A stretch of 64,000 nucleotides of DNA from the human T2T-CHM13v2.0 reference genome, Homo sapiens. The translations under genes were made by a program, and so were the position numbers. Numbering within the stretch: position 1 is the first letter of the stretch; every line of letters begins with the position of its first letter. A model generated the notes under the pieces. The model saw only the letters and a list, made by a program, of their open reading frames with translations, did not search any database and was not told where the DNA came from. Positions 25,352 through 44,254 of this stretch are shown here, in pieces. Where the stretch lies: assembly GCF_009914755.1 (NCBI RefSeq), contig NC_060927.1; one strand, written 5' to 3'.

Positions 25352-26252
25352 GGGAGGAGCCAAGATGGCCGAATAGGAACAGCTCTGGTCTACAGCTCCC
25401 AGCGTGAGCGACGCAGAAGATGGGTGATTTCTGCATTTCCATCTGAGGTACCGGGTTCATCTCACTAGGGAGTGCCAGACAGTGGGCACAGGTCAGTGGG
25501 TGCGTGCACCGTGCGCAAGCCGAAGCAGGGCGAGGCATTGCCTCACTCGGGAAGCGCAAGGGGTCAGGGAGTTCCCTTTCCTAGTCAAAGAAAGGGGTGA
25601 AGGACGGCACCTGGAAAATCGGGTCACTCCCACCCCAATACTGAGCTTTTCCGACGGGCTTAAAAAACGGCGCACCACGAGATTATATCACGCACCTGGC
25701 TCGGAGGGTCCTACACCCACGGAGTCTCGCTGATTGCTAGCACAGCAGTCTGAGATCAAACTGCAAGGCGGCAGCCAGGCTGGGGGAGGAGCGCCCGCCA
25801 TTGCCCAGGCTTGCTGAGGTAAACAAAGCAGCCAGGAAGCTCAAACTGGGTGGAGCCCACCACAGCTCAAGGAGGCCTGCCTGCCTCTGTAGGCTCCACC
25901 TCTGGGGGCAGGGCACAGACAAAAAGACAGCAGTAACCTCTGCAGACTTAAATGTCCCTGTCTGACAGCTTTGAAGAGAGCAATGGTTCTCCCAGTACGC
26001 AGCTGGAGATCTGAGAAGGGGCAGACTGCCTCCTCAAGTGGGTGCCTGACCCCTGACCCCCGAGCAGCCTAACTGGGAGACACCCCCCAACAGGGGCACA
26101 CTGACACCTCACATAGCAGGGTACTCCAACAGCCCTGCAGCTGAGGGTCCTGTCTGTTACAAGGAAAACTAACAAACAGAAAGGACATCCACACCAAAAA
26201 CCCATCTGTACATCACCATCATCAAAGACCAAAAGTAGATAAAACCACAAAG
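25352..26252 (+). promoter_or_regulatory. L1 5'UTR internal sense/antisense promoter with YY1 site
   Basis: CAAGATGGCC YY1 motif at 25361; CpG-rich 5'UTR retained. Confidence 0.85.
25688..25801 (-). pseudogene. ORF0: L1 ORF0, truncated at codon 38
   Basis: MAGAPPPAWLPPCSLISDCCASNQRDSVGVGPSEPGA*; the remainder (VRRFLSPSEK...) follows in frame after the TGA. Confidence 0.8.
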
Positions 26253-27268
26253 ATGGGGAAAAAACAGAACAGAAAAACTGGAAACTCTAAAAAGCAGAGC
26301 GCCTCTCCTCCTCCAAAGGAACGCAGTTCTTCACCAGCAACGGAACAAAGCTGGACGGACAATGACTTTGACGAGCTGAGAGAAGAAGGCTTCAGACGAT
26401 CAAATTACTCTGAGCTACGGGAGGACATTCAAACCAAAGGCAAAGAAGTTGAAAACTTTGAAAAAAATTTAGAAGAATGTATAACTAGAATAACCAATAC
26501 AGAGAAGTGCTTAAAGGAGCTGATGGAGCTGAAAACCAAGGCTCGAGAACTACGTGAAGAATGCAGAAGCCTCAGGAGCCGATGCGATCAACTGGAAGAA
26601 AGGGTATCAGCGATGGAAGATGAAATGAATGAAATGAAGTGAGAAGGGAAGTTTAGAGAAAAAAGAATAAAAAGAAATGAGCAAAGCCTCCAAGAAATAT
26701 GGGACTGTGTGAAAAGACCAAATCTACGTCTGATTGATCTACCTGAAAGTGATGGGGAGAATGGAACCAAGTTGGAAAACACGCTGCAGGATATTATCCA
26801 GGAGAACTTCCCCAATCTAGCAAGGCAGGCCAACGTTCAGATTCAGGAAATACAGAGAACGCCACAAAGATACTCCTCAAGAAGAGCAACTCCAAGACAC
26901 ATAATTGTCAGATTCACCAAAGTTGAAATGAAGGAAAAAATGTTAAGGGCAGCCAGAGAGAAAGGTCGGGTTACCCTCAAAGGGAAGCCCATCAGACTAA
27001 CAGCGGATCTCTCGGCAGAAACCCTACAAGCCAGAAGAGAGTGGGGGCCAATATTCAACATTCTTAAAGAAAAGAATTTTCAACCCAGAATTTCATATCC
27101 AGCCAAACTAACTTCATAAGTGAAGGAGAAATAAAATACTTTACAGACAAGCAAATGCTGAGAGATTTTGTCACCACCAGGCCTGCCCTAAAAGAGCTCC
27201 TGAAAGAAGCACTAAACATGGAAAGGAACAACTGGTACCAGCTGCTGCAAAATCATGCCAAAATGTAA
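26253..27268 (+). pseudogene. ORF1: L1 ORF1p of copy 1, disrupted
   Basis: MGKKQNRKTGNSK...; TGA at 26640-26642 and a frameshift near 27111. Confidence 0.96.
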
Positions 27269-27331
27269 AGACCATTGAGACTAGGAAGAAACTGCATCAA
27301 CTAATGAGCAAAATAACCAGCTAACATCATA

Positions 27332-40180: not shown

Positions 40181-43100
40181 CACATAACAATATTAACTTT
40201 AAATGTAAATGGACTAAATGCTCCAATTAAAAGACACAGACTGGCAAATTGGATAAAGAGTCAAGACCCATCAGTGTGCTGTATTCAGGAAACCCATCTC
40301 ACGTGCAGAGACACACATAGGCTCAAAATAAAAGGATGGAGGAAGATCTACCAAGCAAATGGAAAACAAAAAAAGGCAGGGGTTGCAATCCTAGTCTCTG
40401 ATAAAACAGACTTTAAACCAACAAAGATCAAAAGAGACAAAGAAGGCCATTACATAATGGTAAAGGGATCAATTCAACAAGAAGAGCTAACTATCCTAAA
40501 TATATATGCACCCAATACAGGAGCACCAAGATTCATAAAGCAAGTCCTGAGTGACCTACAAAGAGACTTAGACTCCCACACATTAATAATGGGAGACTTT
40601 AACACCCCACTGTCAACGTTAGACAGATCAACAAGACACAAAGTCAACAAGGATATCCAGGAATTGAACTCAGCTCTGCACCAAGTGGATCTAATAGACA
40701 TCTACAGAACTCTCCACCCCAGATCAACAGAATATACATTTTTTTCAGCACCACACCACACCTATTCCAAAATTGACCACATACTTGGAAGTAAAGCTCT
40801 CCTCAGCAAATGTAAAAGAACAGAAATTATAACAAACTATCTCTCAGACCACAGTGCAATCAAACTAGAACTCAGGATTAAGAATCTCACTCAAAGCCGC
40901 TCAACTAGATGGAAACTGAACAACCTGCTCCTGAATAACTACTGGGTACATAACGAAATGAAGGCAGAAATAAAGATGTTCTTTGAAACCAACGAGAACA
41001 AAGACACAACATACCAGAATCTCTGGGACACATTCAAAGCAGTGTGTACAGGGAAATTTATAGCACTAAATGTCCACAAGAGAAAGCAGGAAAGATCCAA
41101 AATTGACACCCTAACATCACAATTAAAAGAACTAGAAAAGCAAGAGCAAACACATTCAAAAGCTATCAGAAGGCAAGAAATAACTAAAATCAGAGCAGAA
41201 CTGAAGGAAATAGAGACACAAAAAACCCTTCAAAAAATTAATGAATCCAGGAGCTGGTTTTTTGAAAGGATCAACAAAATAGATAGACCGCTAGCAAGAC
41301 TAATAAAGAAAAAAAGAGAGAAGAATCAAATAGACGCAATAAAAAATGATAAAGGGGATATCACCACCGATCCCACAGAAATACAAACTACCATCAGAGA
41401 ATACTACAAACGCCTCTATGCAAATAAACTAGAAAATCTAGAAGAAATGGATAAATTCCTCGACACATACACTCTCCCAAGACTAAACCAGGAAGAAGTT
41501 GAATCTCTGAATAGCCCAATAACAGGATCTGAAATTGTGGCAATAATCAATAGCTTACCAACCAAAAAGAGTCCAGGACCGGATGGATTCACAGCCGAAT
41601 TCTACCAGAGGTACAAGGAGGAACTGGTACCATTCCTTCTGAAACTATTCCAATCAACAGAAAAAGAGGGAATCCTCCCTAACTCATTTTATGAAGCCAG
41701 CATCATTCTGATACCAAAGCCAGGCAGAGACACAACAAAAAAAGAAAATTTTAGATCAATATCCTTGATGAACATTGATGCAAAAATCCTCAATAAAATA
41801 CTGGCAAAACGAATCCAGCAGCACATCAAAAAGCTTATCCACCATGATCAAGTGGGCTTCATCCCTGGGATGCAAGGCTGGTTCAATATACACAAATCAA
41901 TAAATGTAATCCAGCATATAAACAGAGCCAAAGACAAAAACCACATGATTATCTCAATAGATGCAGAAAAAGCCTTTGACAAAATTCAACAATGCTTCAT
42001 GCTAAAAACTCTCAATAAATTAGGTATTGATGGGACATATTTCAAAATAATAAGAGCTATCTATGACAAACCCACAGCCAATATCATACTGAATGGGCAA
42101 AAACTGGAAGCATTCCCTTTGAAAACTGGCACAAGACAGGGATGCCCTCGCTCACCACTCCTATTCAACATAGTGTTGGAAGTTCTGGCCAGGGCAATTA
42201 GGCAGGAGAAGGAAATAAAGGCTATTCAATTAGGAAAAGAGGAAGTCAAATTGTCCCTGTTTGCAGAGGACATGATTGTATATCTAGAAAACCCCATTGT
42301 CTCAGCCCAAAATCTCCTTAAGCTGATAAGCAACTTCAGCAAAGTCTCAGGATACAAGATCAATGTACAAAAATCACAGGCATTCTTATACACCAACAAC
42401 AGACAAACAGAGAGCCAAATCATGAGTGAACTCCCATTCACAATTGCTTCAAAGAGAATAAAATACCTAGGAATCCAACTTACAAGGGATGTTAAGGACC
42501 TCTTCAAGGAGAACTACAAACCACTGCTCAAGGAAATAAAAGAGGATACAAACAAATGGAAGAACATTCCATGCTCATGGGTAGGAAGAATCAATATCGT
42601 GAAAATGGCCATACTGCCCAAGGTAATTTACAGATTCAATGCCATCCCCATCAAGCTACCAATGACTTTCTTCACAGAATTGGAAAAAACTACTTTAAAG
42701 TTCATATGGAACCAAAAAAGAGCCCACATCGCCACGTCAATCCTAAGCCAGAAGAACAAAGCTGGAGGCATCACACTACCTGACTTCAAACTATACTGCA
42801 AGGCTACAGTAACCAAAACAGCATGATACTGGTACCAAAACAGAGATATAGATCAATGGAACAGAACAGAGCCCTCAGAAATAACGTCGCATATATACAG
42901 CTATCTGATCTTTGACAAACCTGACAAAAACAAGAAATGGGGAAAGGATTCCCTATTTAATAAATGGTGCTGGGAAAACTGGCTAGCCATATGTAGAAAG
43001 CTGAAACTGGATCCCTTCCTTACACCTTATACAAAAATCAATTCAAGATGGATTAAAGACTTAAACGTTAGACCTAAAACCATAAAAACCCTAGAAGAAA

Positions 43101-43990
43101 ACCTAGGCATTACCATTCAGGACATAGGCATGGGCAAGGACTTCATGTCTAAAACACCAAAAGCAATGGCAACAAAAGCCAAAATTGACAAATGGGATCT
43201 AATTAAACTAAAGAGCTTCTGCACAGCAAAAGAAACTACCATCAGAGTGAACAGGCAACCTACAAAATGGGAGAAAATTTTTGCAACCTACTCATCTGAC
43301 AAAGGGCTAATATCCAGAATCTACAATGAACTCAAACAAATTTACAAGAAAAAAACAAACGACCCCATCAAAAAGTGGGCAAAGGACATGAATAGACCCT
43401 TCTCAAAAGAAGACATTTATGCAGCCAAAAAACACATGAAAAAATGCTCATCATCACTGGCCATCAGAGAAATGTAAATCAAAACCACAATGAGATACCA
43501 TCTCACACCAGTTAGAATGGCAATCATTAAAAAGTCAGGAAACAACAGGTGCTGGATAGGATGTGGAGAAATAGGAACACTTTTACACTGTTGTTGGGAT
43601 TGTAAACTAGTTCAACCATTGTGGAAGTCAGTGTGGCGATTCCTCAGTGATCTAGAACTGGAAATACCATTTGACCCAGCCATCCCATTACTGGGTATAT
43701 ACCCAAAGGACTATAAATCATGCTGCTATAAAGACACATGCACACGTATGTTTATTGCAGCATTATTCACAATAGCAAAGACTTGGAACCAACCCAAATG
43801 TCCAACAATGATAGACTGGATTAAGAAAATGTGGCACATATACACCATGGAAAACTATGCAGCCATAAAAAAGGATGAGTTCATGTCCTTTGTAGGGACA
43901 TGGATGAAATTGGAAATCATCATTCTCAGTAAACTATTGCAAGAAAAAAAAACCAAACACCGCATATTCTCACTCATAGGTGGGAATTGA
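40181..43990 (+). pseudogene. ORF2: L1 ORF2p of copy 2: lacks start codon, no frameshifts, two nonsense codons
   Basis: Frame open from HITILTLN (40181) to TGA 42824-42826; second stop 43475-43477; ends LIGGN*; RT motif FAED. Confidence 0.96.
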
Positions 43991-44254
43991 ACAATGAGAT
44001 CACATGGACACAGGAAGGGGAATATGACACTCTGGGGACTGTTGTTTGGTGGGGGGAGGGGGGGAGGGATAGCATTGGGAGATATACCTAATGCTAGATG
44101 ATGAGATAGTGAGTGCAGCGCAGGAGCATGGCACATGTATACATATGTAACTAACCTGCACAATGTGCACATGTACCCTAAAACTTAAAGTATAATAATA
44201 ATTTTAAAAAAAAAGAAAAAAAAAAGAAAGTGTAGAATCTGCCACTTTAGTGCC

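What the first reader, a model, noticed from the sequence alone, without database searches (positions are those of the whole stretch)
26071..44223. Two independent neighbouring L1s share private lethal mutations in identical tracts: local gene conversion in direct and inverted geometry
Seen: the copies have different TSDs and unrelated flanks, so they are separate insertions. In the EN region (27349-28178 vs 40180-41009) I count roughly 25-30 differences (~3%). In contrast, 29318-29740 vs 42151-42573 (423 bp, direct) and 26398-26736 vs 39140-39478 (339 bp, inverted, CpGs included) read as identical. Both carry the same ORF1 TGA (26640/39236) and RT FAED (29433/42266). Established: FADD holds catalytic D702. 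Other shared changes against the recalled consensus: WDY->WDC, GVP->LP, CRG->CTG, NAH->NVH, NRP->NSP, RPISL->RSISL, KGI->KAI, LYY->LYC, IYN->IYS. They still differ at sites I recall as subfamily-diagnostic (QNR vs QSR, catcctg vs cattctg, aaggcc vs aaagcc). Inference: patchy, recurrent ectopic conversion spread dead alleles between the copies, independently in the inverted and direct arms. Alternative: both came from one defective source mobilised in trans.
Basis: partly seen in the sequence, partly recalled or inferred. Interest (0 to 1): 0.85.

Follow-up and report, generated by a model that had tools for sequence, protein, structure and literature searches.

The report
Neighbouring L1 copies exchanged sequence patches
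Two dead L1 retrotransposons 7 kb apart on human chromosome 3 were inserted separately and later copied patches of sequence from one to the other, so they now share private mutations, including one in the reverse-transcriptase active site; it is a clean example of a known process.

Summary
Copy A (25352-31391) is a full-length L1. Copy B (38617-44224) is one 5'-inverted (twin-primed) L1. Each has its own target-site duplication.

A and B are identical over 423 bp (RT region) and 339 bp (ORF1). Both carry the ORF1 TGA and RT FADD>FAED (D702E; the changed base is 29435, not 29433).

B holds a 375-bp filler copied from chrX between its arms. The filler is 2.9% diverged from its source, which dates B.

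Common descent from one defective source is rejected. At 9 of 61 non-CpG lineage-marker sites A and B differ, and B carries the more derived master-lineage state at 8.

Thirteen variants seen in 0 of 30 comparison copies are shared by A and B. All lie in 26160-26783 and 28218-30092. There A and B are each other's nearest relatives and CpG states agree (15/16, 10/15). In the EN and 3' regions they behave like a random pair.

This is a known kind of event, of modest interest.

Side result: rare L1 variants are shared by neighbours within 100 kb in 13 pairs, against about 0.15 expected. FAED accounts for 6 pairs among its 23 copies, which is unexplained.

The parts
25341..25350 (+). 5' target-site duplication of copy A (AGAATAGCTT)
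   Evidence: Read; same 10-mer at 31392-31401.
25352..31391 (+). Copy A: full-length L1 (5'UTR, ORF1, ORF2, 3'UTR, A-tail). It is dead: ORF1 TGA at 26640, ORF2 frameshifts near 28394 and 29161, a stop at 29739-41, and FAED.
   Evidence: Translations. 96-97% identical to about 30 genomic full-length or partial L1 copies.
31392..31401 (+). 3' target-site duplication of copy A
38600..38616 (+). 5' target-site duplication of copy B (17 nt, one mismatch to the 3' copy)
38617..39805 (-). Copy B, inverted 5' arm (= A 27260..26071: end of the 5'UTR, ORF1, spacer)
   Evidence: A TG microhomology joins the TSD to the arm.
39806..40179 (+). Non-L1 filler between B's arms, copied from chrX (G000:C23, about 9.6844 Mb, minus strand): 364/375 identical
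   Evidence: It is the only other match in the genome, and the chrX copy lies in a unique context without L1 flanks.
40180..44224 (+). Copy B, direct 3' arm (= A 27349-31395) plus A-tail. ORF2 is open for 881 codons (40181-42823). A 27261-27348 is missing at the junction.
44225..44241 (+). 3' target-site duplication of copy B
26160..26783 (+). Exchange tract 1 on A (ORF1 5' half; partner B 39716-39093, inverted). 0.96% divergence, 4 exclusive shared variants, CpG states equal at 15 of 16 sites. Contains the 339-bp identical run 26398-26736 and the shared TGA.
28218..30092 (+). Exchange region 2 on A (RT region; partner B 41049-42925, direct). 9 exclusive shared variants plus FAED, interleaved with differences; 1.87% divergence.
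29162..29740 (+). Young core tract on A (partner B 41995-42573): 1 difference in 579 bp. Contains the 423-bp identical run and the FAED codon (A 29433-29435, B 42266-42268).

Best explanation
A and B are two separate L1 insertions of the same subfamily, made from successive source elements of the master lineage. A is a full-length copy. B is a twin-primed, 5'-inverted copy that also picked up 375 bp of a chrX-derived template at its inversion junction.

After insertion, the two copies (start-to-start 12.8 kb; 7 kb between them) repaired or recombined off each other by non-crossover, non-allelic gene conversion, at least three times:
1. An older, patchy exchange across about 1.9 kb of the RT region (28218-30092).
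2. A younger one of about 0.6-0.75 kb in ORF1, against B's inverted arm.
3. A very young one of about 0.58 kb in the RT core (29162-29740).

Each exchange carried private mutations of the donor into the recipient. That is why both copies now have the same D702E (FAED) change and the same set of rare amino-acid changes.

Shown: separate insertion; different source states; the mosaic of relatedness; the rarity of the shared variants.

Inferred: the conversion mechanism itself; patchy heteroduplex repair as the cause of the interleaving; the number and order of events. The direction (which copy gave) is not determined.
For: Independent origin:
- Each copy has its own TSD pair. B's TSD encloses both arms and the filler.
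- A and B differ at 9 of 61 non-CpG sites that mark steps of the master lineage, and B is derived at 8. My arithmetic expects about 0.6 such differences from private mutation alone.

Mosaic relatedness:
- 13 A=B variants are absent from all 30 comparison copies. All lie in 26160-26783 or 28218-30092. None lies in 26784-27260, EN 27349-28217 or 30093-31395.
- Among 494 pairs of copies only three share more than 4 such variants; the median is 0.
- Regional A-B divergence is 0.96% (lowest of 253 pairs), 2.10%, 3.22% (rank 135/300), 1.87% (rank 3/435) and 4.14% (rank 275/561). Singleton rates of the panel are flat across regions, 0.95-1.19%.
- CpG-state agreement is 15/16, 4/9, 2/6, 10/15 and 3/10 in the same regions, against a panel mean of 0.39-0.53.

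Young core:
- One difference in 579 bp. Permutation p = 3e-4. It is the longest such run among 276 pairs.

Rarity of the shared variants:
- FAED occurs in 23 of 6690 copies of the 28-mer.
- The doubles 28218C+28242T and 30062A+30067G each occur in one other copy genome-wide. Those two copies lack all other shared variants.

Clock:
- The filler is 2.9% from its chrX source, close to the A-B divergence in unexchanged regions (3.2-4.1%) and well above that in the tracts.

Generality:
- Rare variants of this 28-mer are shared by neighbours within 100 kb in 13 pairs among 144 copies, against about 0.15 expected.
- Two other FAED pairs carry extra exclusive variants flanking FAED over about 0.6 kb.

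Print:
- Conversion between nearby TE copies is described (PMC6598467, passages read).
Against: - A GENECONV-like longest-run test on polymorphic sites gives p = 9e-4 for A-B. That is 4th of 595 pairs and misses the Bonferroni line of 8.4e-5. The panel was chosen by likeness to A in 29318-29740, which raises control runs there.
- The raw scan statistic is larger for several unrelated pairs, because the 3'UTR is hypervariable.
- The 339-bp run alone is not significant (p = 0.09; next pair 325 bp).
- In the flanks of the RT core (28218-29161 and 29741-30092) divergence is 2.6-2.9%, as high as in unrelated regions. The sharing there rests on 8 exclusive variants in patches under 150 bp, so it needs patchy heteroduplex repair or many short events.
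- In a star-like family, 'nearest neighbour' and CpG agreement at background level do not by themselves exclude common descent at the time of B's insertion. The lineage-marker sites carry that argument, and they rest on a panel of about 35 copies.
- No outgroup species or second human haplotype was available, so no event is seen directly and the direction is unknown.
Confidence: 0.75

Rival explanations
1. Common descent: B is a retrocopy of A, or both come from one defective source mobilised in trans. The shared lesions were already in the RNA template. Only the two youngest tracts are later conversion.
For: - Exclusive shared variants occur in both arms of B, which derive from one RNA-templated event.
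- A-private and B-private counts are equal (59 vs 65).
- A-B divergence outside the tracts (about 3%) matches the filler clock of 2.9%.
- A is full-length and could have been transcribed.
- Another neighbour pair, L026/L034, shares its whole marker haplotype.
Against: - A and B differ at 9 of 61 non-CpG lineage-marker sites in the direction expected of successive masters.
- The 13 exclusive variants avoid 2.7 kb of the 5.2 kb compared. My arithmetic gives about 0.005 for two such gaps.
- No other genomic member of the haplotype was found.
- Insertion of progeny 7 kb from its source would need a local-reinsertion mechanism that is not known for L1.
Confidence: 0.1
2. RNA-level recombination: during the untidy TPRT event that made B, the reverse transcriptase switched between an A-derived RNA and another L1 RNA, as it switched to a chrX RNA. 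On this reading the mosaic dates from B's birth.
For: - B demonstrably contains a foreign 375-bp template and a twin-priming junction.
- Divergence in the RT flanks (2.6-2.9%) equals the filler clock.
- L1 template switching and chimeras are described (PMC13174262, passages read).
Against: - Exclusive variants and marker differences interleave at a scale under 100 bp (28875 / 28924 / 28977). That would need ten or more switches.
- The ORF1 tract (0.96%) and the core (0.17%) are far younger than B.
- It gives no reason why the second RNA should come from the neighbour.
Confidence: 0.06
3. No exchange at all: chance long runs plus parallel mutation at hypermutable sites in two unrelated copies of one subfamily.
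For: - The TGA is a CpG transition seen in 3 of 21 other copies.
- The longest-run test fails multiple-pair correction.
- The 339-bp run is matched by 325 bp in an unrelated pair.
Against: - 13 shared variants are absent from 30 other copies, against a median of 0 and at most 4 for 491 of 494 pairs. Most are not CpG changes.
- FAED has a frequency of 0.34%.
- CpG agreement of 15/16 is reached by 0 of 210 panel pairs.
- The 579-bp run is unmatched in 270 control pairs.
Confidence: 0.03
4. Assembly or polishing artefact that homogenised the two copies locally.
For: None from the calls.
Against: - The copies differ by about 3% along 5.2 kb, with differences right up to the tract edges, so reads of normal long-read length would be placed uniquely (inference).
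- The older patches carry later private differences, which polishing would not create.
- The same kind of sharing is seen in other neighbour pairs.
Confidence: 0.02

Closest known systems
Non-allelic (interlocus) gene conversion between nearby transposable-element copies, best documented for Alu (Aleshin and Zhi 2010, as cited in PMC6598467; passages read)
   Same: Separately inserted copies a few kb apart share private variants in tracts. The rate rises with proximity and identity. Mutations that cluster together are transferred together.
   Different: Here the partners are 6-kb L1s rather than 300-bp Alus. Several tracts of different age can be told apart. One partner offers both direct and inverted homology. 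A built-in clock (the chrX filler) dates one copy.
Recombinant or mosaic L1 elements in human assemblies (PMC13192797, preprint, passages read: 35 of 2,267 young full-length L1 consensus sequences called recombinant)
   Same: L1 copies whose segments have different nearest relatives.
   Different: That screen looked for mixing between lineage groups in young L1s. It does not, in the passages I read, tie the donor to a neighbouring copy. Here both partners are identified, old and dead.
Twin priming and chimeric L1 insertions (Ostertag and Kazazian 2001, listed in the references of PMC13174262; PMC13174262 passages read)
   Same: B has one TSD pair, an inverted 5' segment next to a direct 3' segment, an 88-bp loss at the junction, and microhomology at the priming site and junctions.
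   Different: A 375-bp piece of unrelated single-copy chrX sequence sits exactly at the inversion junction. In the passages I read, the catalogued chimeras place the foreign RNA at the 5' end, not between two L1 arms.
Trans-mobilised defective L1 lineages (exceptions to cis preference; recalled, Wei et al. 2001, not seen here)
   Same: Two copies share inactivating changes in ORF1 and in the RT active site.
   Different: The sharing is regional, the marker states differ, and no dispersed family with the haplotype exists in this genome.

Membership tests
LINE-1 (L1) retrotransposon copies | ORF2 with endonuclease and reverse-transcriptase domains homologous to human L1 ORF2p | tested here: met
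   B 40181-42823 aligns end to end (881 aa) to 8uw3_A, E=0. A carries the same frames, broken.
LINE-1 (L1) retrotransposon copies | A-rich tail and flanking target-site duplication | tested here: met
   No subfamily reference was on hand. Only relative placement on a ladder of derived states was done. An age of about 2.9% pairwise comes from the filler.
Twin-primed (5'-inverted) L1 insertion | A single TSD pair encloses an inverted 5' segment and a direct 3' segment of one L1 sequence, with a small loss or duplication at the junction | tested here: met
   TSD at 38600-16 / 44225-41. The arms equal A 27260..26071 and A 27349-31395. 88 bp are missing.
Twin-primed (5'-inverted) L1 insertion | Arms abut directly | tested here: not met
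   375 bp of chrX-derived sequence lies between them. This is a variant of the standard structure.
Non-allelic gene conversion | Partners are independent loci, not a duplication | tested here: met
   Different TSDs. Flanks are unrelated: only L1 parts match. Marker states differ.
Non-allelic gene conversion | Bounded tracts of raised identity carrying shared private variants, with background divergence outside | tested here: met
Non-allelic gene conversion | Significance by a GENECONV-type global test over all pairs | tested here: inconclusive
   p = 9e-4 for the pair, 4th of 595, above the Bonferroni line. The panel is biased for the tract region.
Non-allelic gene conversion | Before-and-after states in an outgroup or other haplotype, giving donor, recipient and date | not testable with these tools
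   Only this one assembly is held.
Trans-mobilised defective L1 lineage | The shared variant set runs the whole length of the copies | tested here: not met
   None of the 13 exclusives lies in 2.7 kb of the 5.2 kb compared. There are 9 marker differences.
Trans-mobilised defective L1 lineage | Further dispersed copies with the same haplotype | tested here: not met
   Two double-variant patterns found one other copy each. Both lack FAED and all other shared variants. Only two patterns were searched.

The most novel reading that the evidence does not exclude
Sequence exchange between L1 copies lying within about 100 kb may be common enough to shape the decay of the whole family. Among six rare-variant classes at three positions of one 28-mer, neighbours share the variant in 13 pairs, against about 0.15 expected. 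One particular allele, the RT-dead D702E (C>G) change, spreads to neighbours far more often than the other five variant classes tested (6 pairs among 23 copies, against 7 pairs among 121). That would point to a strongly biased, allele-specific conversion or repair process rather than plain GC bias.
Probability: 0.15. Interest if true: 0.6.

Novelty: new member of a known kind. Interest (0 to 1): 0.38.

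Why it matters
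It shows base by base that old L1 copies do not decay independently when they lie close together. Inactivating mutations can be copied from one to the other, in either orientation and more than once.

This matters for three reasons:
- Dating L1s by divergence can go wrong where copies have exchanged sequence.
- Shared-variant 'subfamilies' can be false.
- Close L1 pairs that undergo recombinational repair are also substrates for deletions and inversions.

The locus has a rare built-in clock (a single-copy chrX filler inside B), which lets the age of the exchanges be compared with the age of the insertion.

The genome-wide counts suggest the effect is general for L1, as was shown for Alu. They also flag one allele with an unexplained excess.

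Tried and rejected
1. A 'dispersed FAED lineage'.
- L007 and L009 (different chromosomes) shared 11 'unique' variants. These states are shared with older-subfamily copies left out of that panel, so they are subfamily markers, not kinship.
- I briefly read L043 and L044 as FAED carriers because I used 29433 instead of 29435. Corrected: they carry C and T.

2. Direction A>B, from B's ancestral states at 28905 and 30092. Dropped, because L029 and L006 show the same states on a B-like background.

3. GENECONV-like longest-run test. Not significant after correction.

4. Scan statistic on control pairs. Dominated by 3'UTR hypervariability, so not a clean control. Replaced by the empirical run lengths.

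5. Segmental duplication as the cause of the FAED neighbour pairs. Rejected: matches are limited to the L1 parts at 88-97% identity.

6. Long identical tracts round FAED in the other pairs. Not found; the runs are 45-192 bp.

7. GC-biased conversion as the cause of the FAED excess. Not supported once FAED is left out: W>S classes give 2 pairs among 29 copies, the others 5 among 92.

8. A PRDM9-motif match at the FAED site. Read by eye only: 6 of 8 specified positions. Not pursued.

9. An unbiased test on neighbour pairs from chromosome 1, and full-length fetches of the two candidate relatives. Only 4-kb pieces of the two candidates were obtained.

10. Earlier findings of this scan.

11. Literature searches. 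I found no paper on conversion between neighbouring L1s specifically, nor on D702E; this covers only those five searches of the held library. One search timed out and was redone.

Full report
**What is there.**

The window holds two long L1 copies. BLAST and MAFFT show two matches:
- A 27331-31395 matches B 40163-44228 in direct orientation (96.9%; 128 differing columns of 4069).
- A 26071-27260 matches B 39805-38615 in inverted orientation (98.0%; 24 of 1191).

The repeat finder agrees.

A (25352-31391) is full length. It is flanked by AGAATAGCTT at 25341-25350 and 31392-31401.

B is flanked by a 17-nt duplication, with one mismatch, at 38600-38616 and 44225-44241. This duplication encloses both arms. 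B is therefore one insertion of the twin-priming type:
- an inverted arm, 38617-39805;
- a direct arm, 40180-44224 with its A-tail;
- A 27261-27348 missing at the junction;
- a TG microhomology where the TSD meets the inverted arm.

**A filler that dates B.**

The 375 bp between the arms (39806-40179) are not L1. Their only other match in the genome is a single-copy place on contig C23 (chrX, about 9.684 Mb, minus strand), at 364/375 identity. The match ends exactly at the L1 junctions.

Short imperfect similarities between L1 and the chrX sequence sit at both junctions.

B thus picked up a foreign template during insertion. Template switching and twin priming with other RNAs are described (PMC13174262, passages read). 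In those passages I did not see a filler lying between two L1 arms.

The 2.9% divergence of the filler from its source is an internal clock for B.

- The identical tracts are real: A 29318-29740 = B 42151-42573 (423 bp), and A 26398-26736 = B 39478-39140 (339 bp).
- The EN region has 28 differences in 830 bp.
- Both copies have the ORF1 TGA and LFAEDMIV.
- Solved human ORF2p (8uw3_A, E=0) has LFADDMIV at the aligned place, so the change is D702E by my count along the alignment.
- That alignment, together with A's frames, shows CTG, NVH, NSP, RSISL, KAI and LYC. WDC, LP and IYS are seen in both copies' translations and as panel-absent bases.

Corrections:
- The mutated base is 29435.
- The 423-bp tract has no CpG.
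- The TGA is a CpG transition also present in 3 of 21 other copies.

**Comparison copies.**

The assembly could be searched. I fetched:
- 21 other copies carrying the FAED 28-mer;
- 19 of the best non-FAED matches to the 423-bp tract;
- two candidate relatives.

I piled them onto A by BLAST.

A is 97.2% identical to B over 5255 positions. It is 96.0-97.0% identical to many unrelated copies. Raw identity therefore does not single B out.

The panel is biased: its non-FAED members were chosen by likeness to A in 29318-29740.

**Shared private variants.**

Against 30 same-subfamily copies:
- A and B share 23 states present in at most 20% of the panel; 13 of these are in none.
- A has 59 private states and B has 65.
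- At 19 sites both states are common.

Among 494 pairs, A-B has 13 shared-unique variants and L026-L034 has 12. L007-L009 has 11, later explained as subfamily markers. All other pairs have at most 4, and the median is 0.

The 13 lie at 26160, 26360, 26707, 26739, 28218, 28242, 28683, 28924, 29525, 29918, 29965, 30062 and 30067. FAED (29435) lies among them.

None lies in 26784-27260, 27349-28217 or 30093-31395. By my arithmetic, two gaps of that size among 14 uniform points have a probability of about 0.005.

**Mosaic relatedness.**

| Region | A-B divergence | Rank among pairs | CpG-state agreement |
|---|---|---|---|
| 26160-26783 | 0.96% | lowest of 253 | 15/16 |
| 26784-27260 | 2.10% | 22/276 | 4/9 |
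| EN 27349-28217 | 3.22% | 135/300 | 2/6 |
| 28218-30092 | 1.87% | 3/435 | 10/15 |
| 30093-31395 | 4.14% | 275/561 | 3/10 |

- Panel singleton rates are flat across these regions (0.95-1.19%), so mutability does not explain the pattern.
- Panel pairs average 0.39-0.53 CpG agreement. 0 of 210 pairs agree fully in the first region.
- Within 28218-30092, the stretch 29162-29740 has one difference in 579 bp. Permutation p = 3e-4 (0 of 3000 permutations). It is the longest such run among 276 pairs, and 0 of 270 comparably diverged controls reach it.
- The flanks of that core are 2.6-2.9% diverged (counted).

**Common source rejected.**

Sites at which two states are each common in the panel form a ladder of derived states along the master lineage. 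Of 61 non-CpG ladder sites, A and B differ at 9:
- B is derived at 26124, 28875, 28977, 29139, 29798, 30929, 31189 and 31367.
- A is derived at 30346.

Private mutation would give about 0.6 such differences (my arithmetic). So the two copies were made from different, successive source elements.

Several of these differences (28875, 28977, 29139, 29798) sit between exclusive shared variants (28683, 28924, 29525, 29918). The sharing there is therefore patchy at a scale under 150 bp. That fits patchy repair of a long heteroduplex, or several short events; this step is inference.

No third member of an A/B lineage was found:
- The double 28218C+28242T occurs exactly in one other copy.
- The double 30062A+30067G occurs in one other copy.
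- Both of these copies lack FAED and every other shared variant.

**Results that cut the other way.**

- A GENECONV-like longest-run test gives p = 9e-4. That is 4th of 595 pairs and not significant after correction.
- Raw scan statistics are larger for some unrelated pairs, because the 3'UTR is hypervariable.
- The 339-bp run alone is unremarkable (p = 0.09; 325 bp in L040-A).
- In a star-like family, background-level nearest-neighbour and CpG results in the EN and 3' regions do not by themselves exclude common descent at B's birth. The ladder sites carry that point.
- Direction could not be set. B's ancestral states at 28905 and 30092 also occur in B-like copies L029 and L006.

**Mechanism.**

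Most likely (about 0.75): non-crossover, non-allelic gene conversion between two independent neighbours, at least three times:
1. an old patchy event across the RT region;
2. a younger one in ORF1, against B's inverted arm;
3. a very recent one in the RT core.

Relative to the 2.9% filler clock, the core (0.17%) is roughly one-twentieth of B's age, and the ORF1 tract (0.96%) about a third. Both estimates carry wide error.

Conversion between nearby TE copies is known, with raised rates within 10 kb for Alu (PMC6598467, passages read). Recombinant L1s are reported in pangenome data (PMC13192797, passages read). This is a new, well-resolved member of a known kind.

**Side result on neighbours genome-wide.**

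The FAED 28-mer occurs 23 times among 6690 copies of the same 28-mer with any base at that site. Twelve of the 23 form six pairs less than 100 kb apart, on C1, C3 (ours), C4, C5 and twice on C8.

These pairs are not segmental duplications. They include copies of clearly different age.

Same-variant pairs within 100 kb in the other classes:

| Variant class | Pairs / copies |
|---|---|
| C>G (FAED) | 6 / 23 |
| C>A | 2 / 57 |
| A>C | 2 / 16 |
| A>T | 1 / 21 |
| T>G | 0 / 13 |
| T>A | 2 / 14 |

That makes 13 pairs among 144 copies, against about 0.15 expected at mean copy density (my arithmetic).

L001/L002 and L007/L017 carry further exclusive variants within about 0.4 kb either side of FAED. 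The non-FAED neighbours L026/L034 share 8 exclusives.

Leaving FAED out, there is no GC-bias signal (2 pairs among 29 copies vs 5 among 92). Why the FAED allele is paired so often is unexplained.

**Not done.**

- No outgroup species, other human haplotypes or reads were available.
- No subfamily reference was on hand, so L1PA2/3 is not confirmed.
- Ages in years are not given from any call.
- Older papers on L1 conversion, twin priming and cis preference are recalled or seen only as citations.

Noticed in passing
window 39806-40179; L042 (G000:C23, about 9.6844 Mb): A 375-bp single-copy chrX sequence sits exactly at the inversion junction of the twin-primed L1 (364/375 identical to its source). 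In the chrX locus, the 18 nt before the captured piece follow a splice-donor-like AAG|GTGAGC (read from sequence only).
   Followed up: partly
genome-wide: Rare single-base variants of one L1 28-mer are shared by copies less than 100 kb apart in 13 pairs among 144 copies, against about 0.15 expected. The RT D702E (C>G) variant alone gives 6 pairs among 23 copies, an unexplained excess.
   Followed up: partly
L026 and L034 (G000:C7, 124.76 and 124.75 Mb, 18 kb apart): A full-length L1 and a twin-primed L1 share 8 exclusive variants over 28569-30561 (A coordinates) and the same marker haplotype. This is a second neighbour pair like A/B, and here common descent is not excluded.
   Followed up: partly
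L001/L002 (C1, 40.95/41.05 Mb) and L007/L017 (C8, 63.23/63.28 Mb): FAED-sharing neighbours of different age also share exclusive variants flanking FAED (29217, 29269, 29320, 29818; and 29207, 29798). That implies tracts of about 0.6 kb over the same L1 segment as the A/B core.
   Followed up: partly
G000:C4, 109.29, 109.38 and 109.43 Mb: Three neighbouring L1 copies are all mutated at the same T of the 28-mer, to A, A and G.
   Followed up: no
window 25623-26217: The RefSeq 'enhancer' feature lies wholly inside copy A's 5'UTR and the start of ORF1. It is an L1 promoter region rather than a unique element.
   Followed up: no
window 32939-33604: A further, older L1 3'-end fragment (90% identical to A 30742-31041) lies between A and B. 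It does not cover the exchanged regions.
   Followed up: no
window 29389 and 29546: A and B combine two minor states (29389 C and 29546 G). In the 38 aligned comparison copies these occur only in disjoint sets, 6 and 7 copies. This hints at an earlier recombinant background inside the core tract.
   Followed up: no
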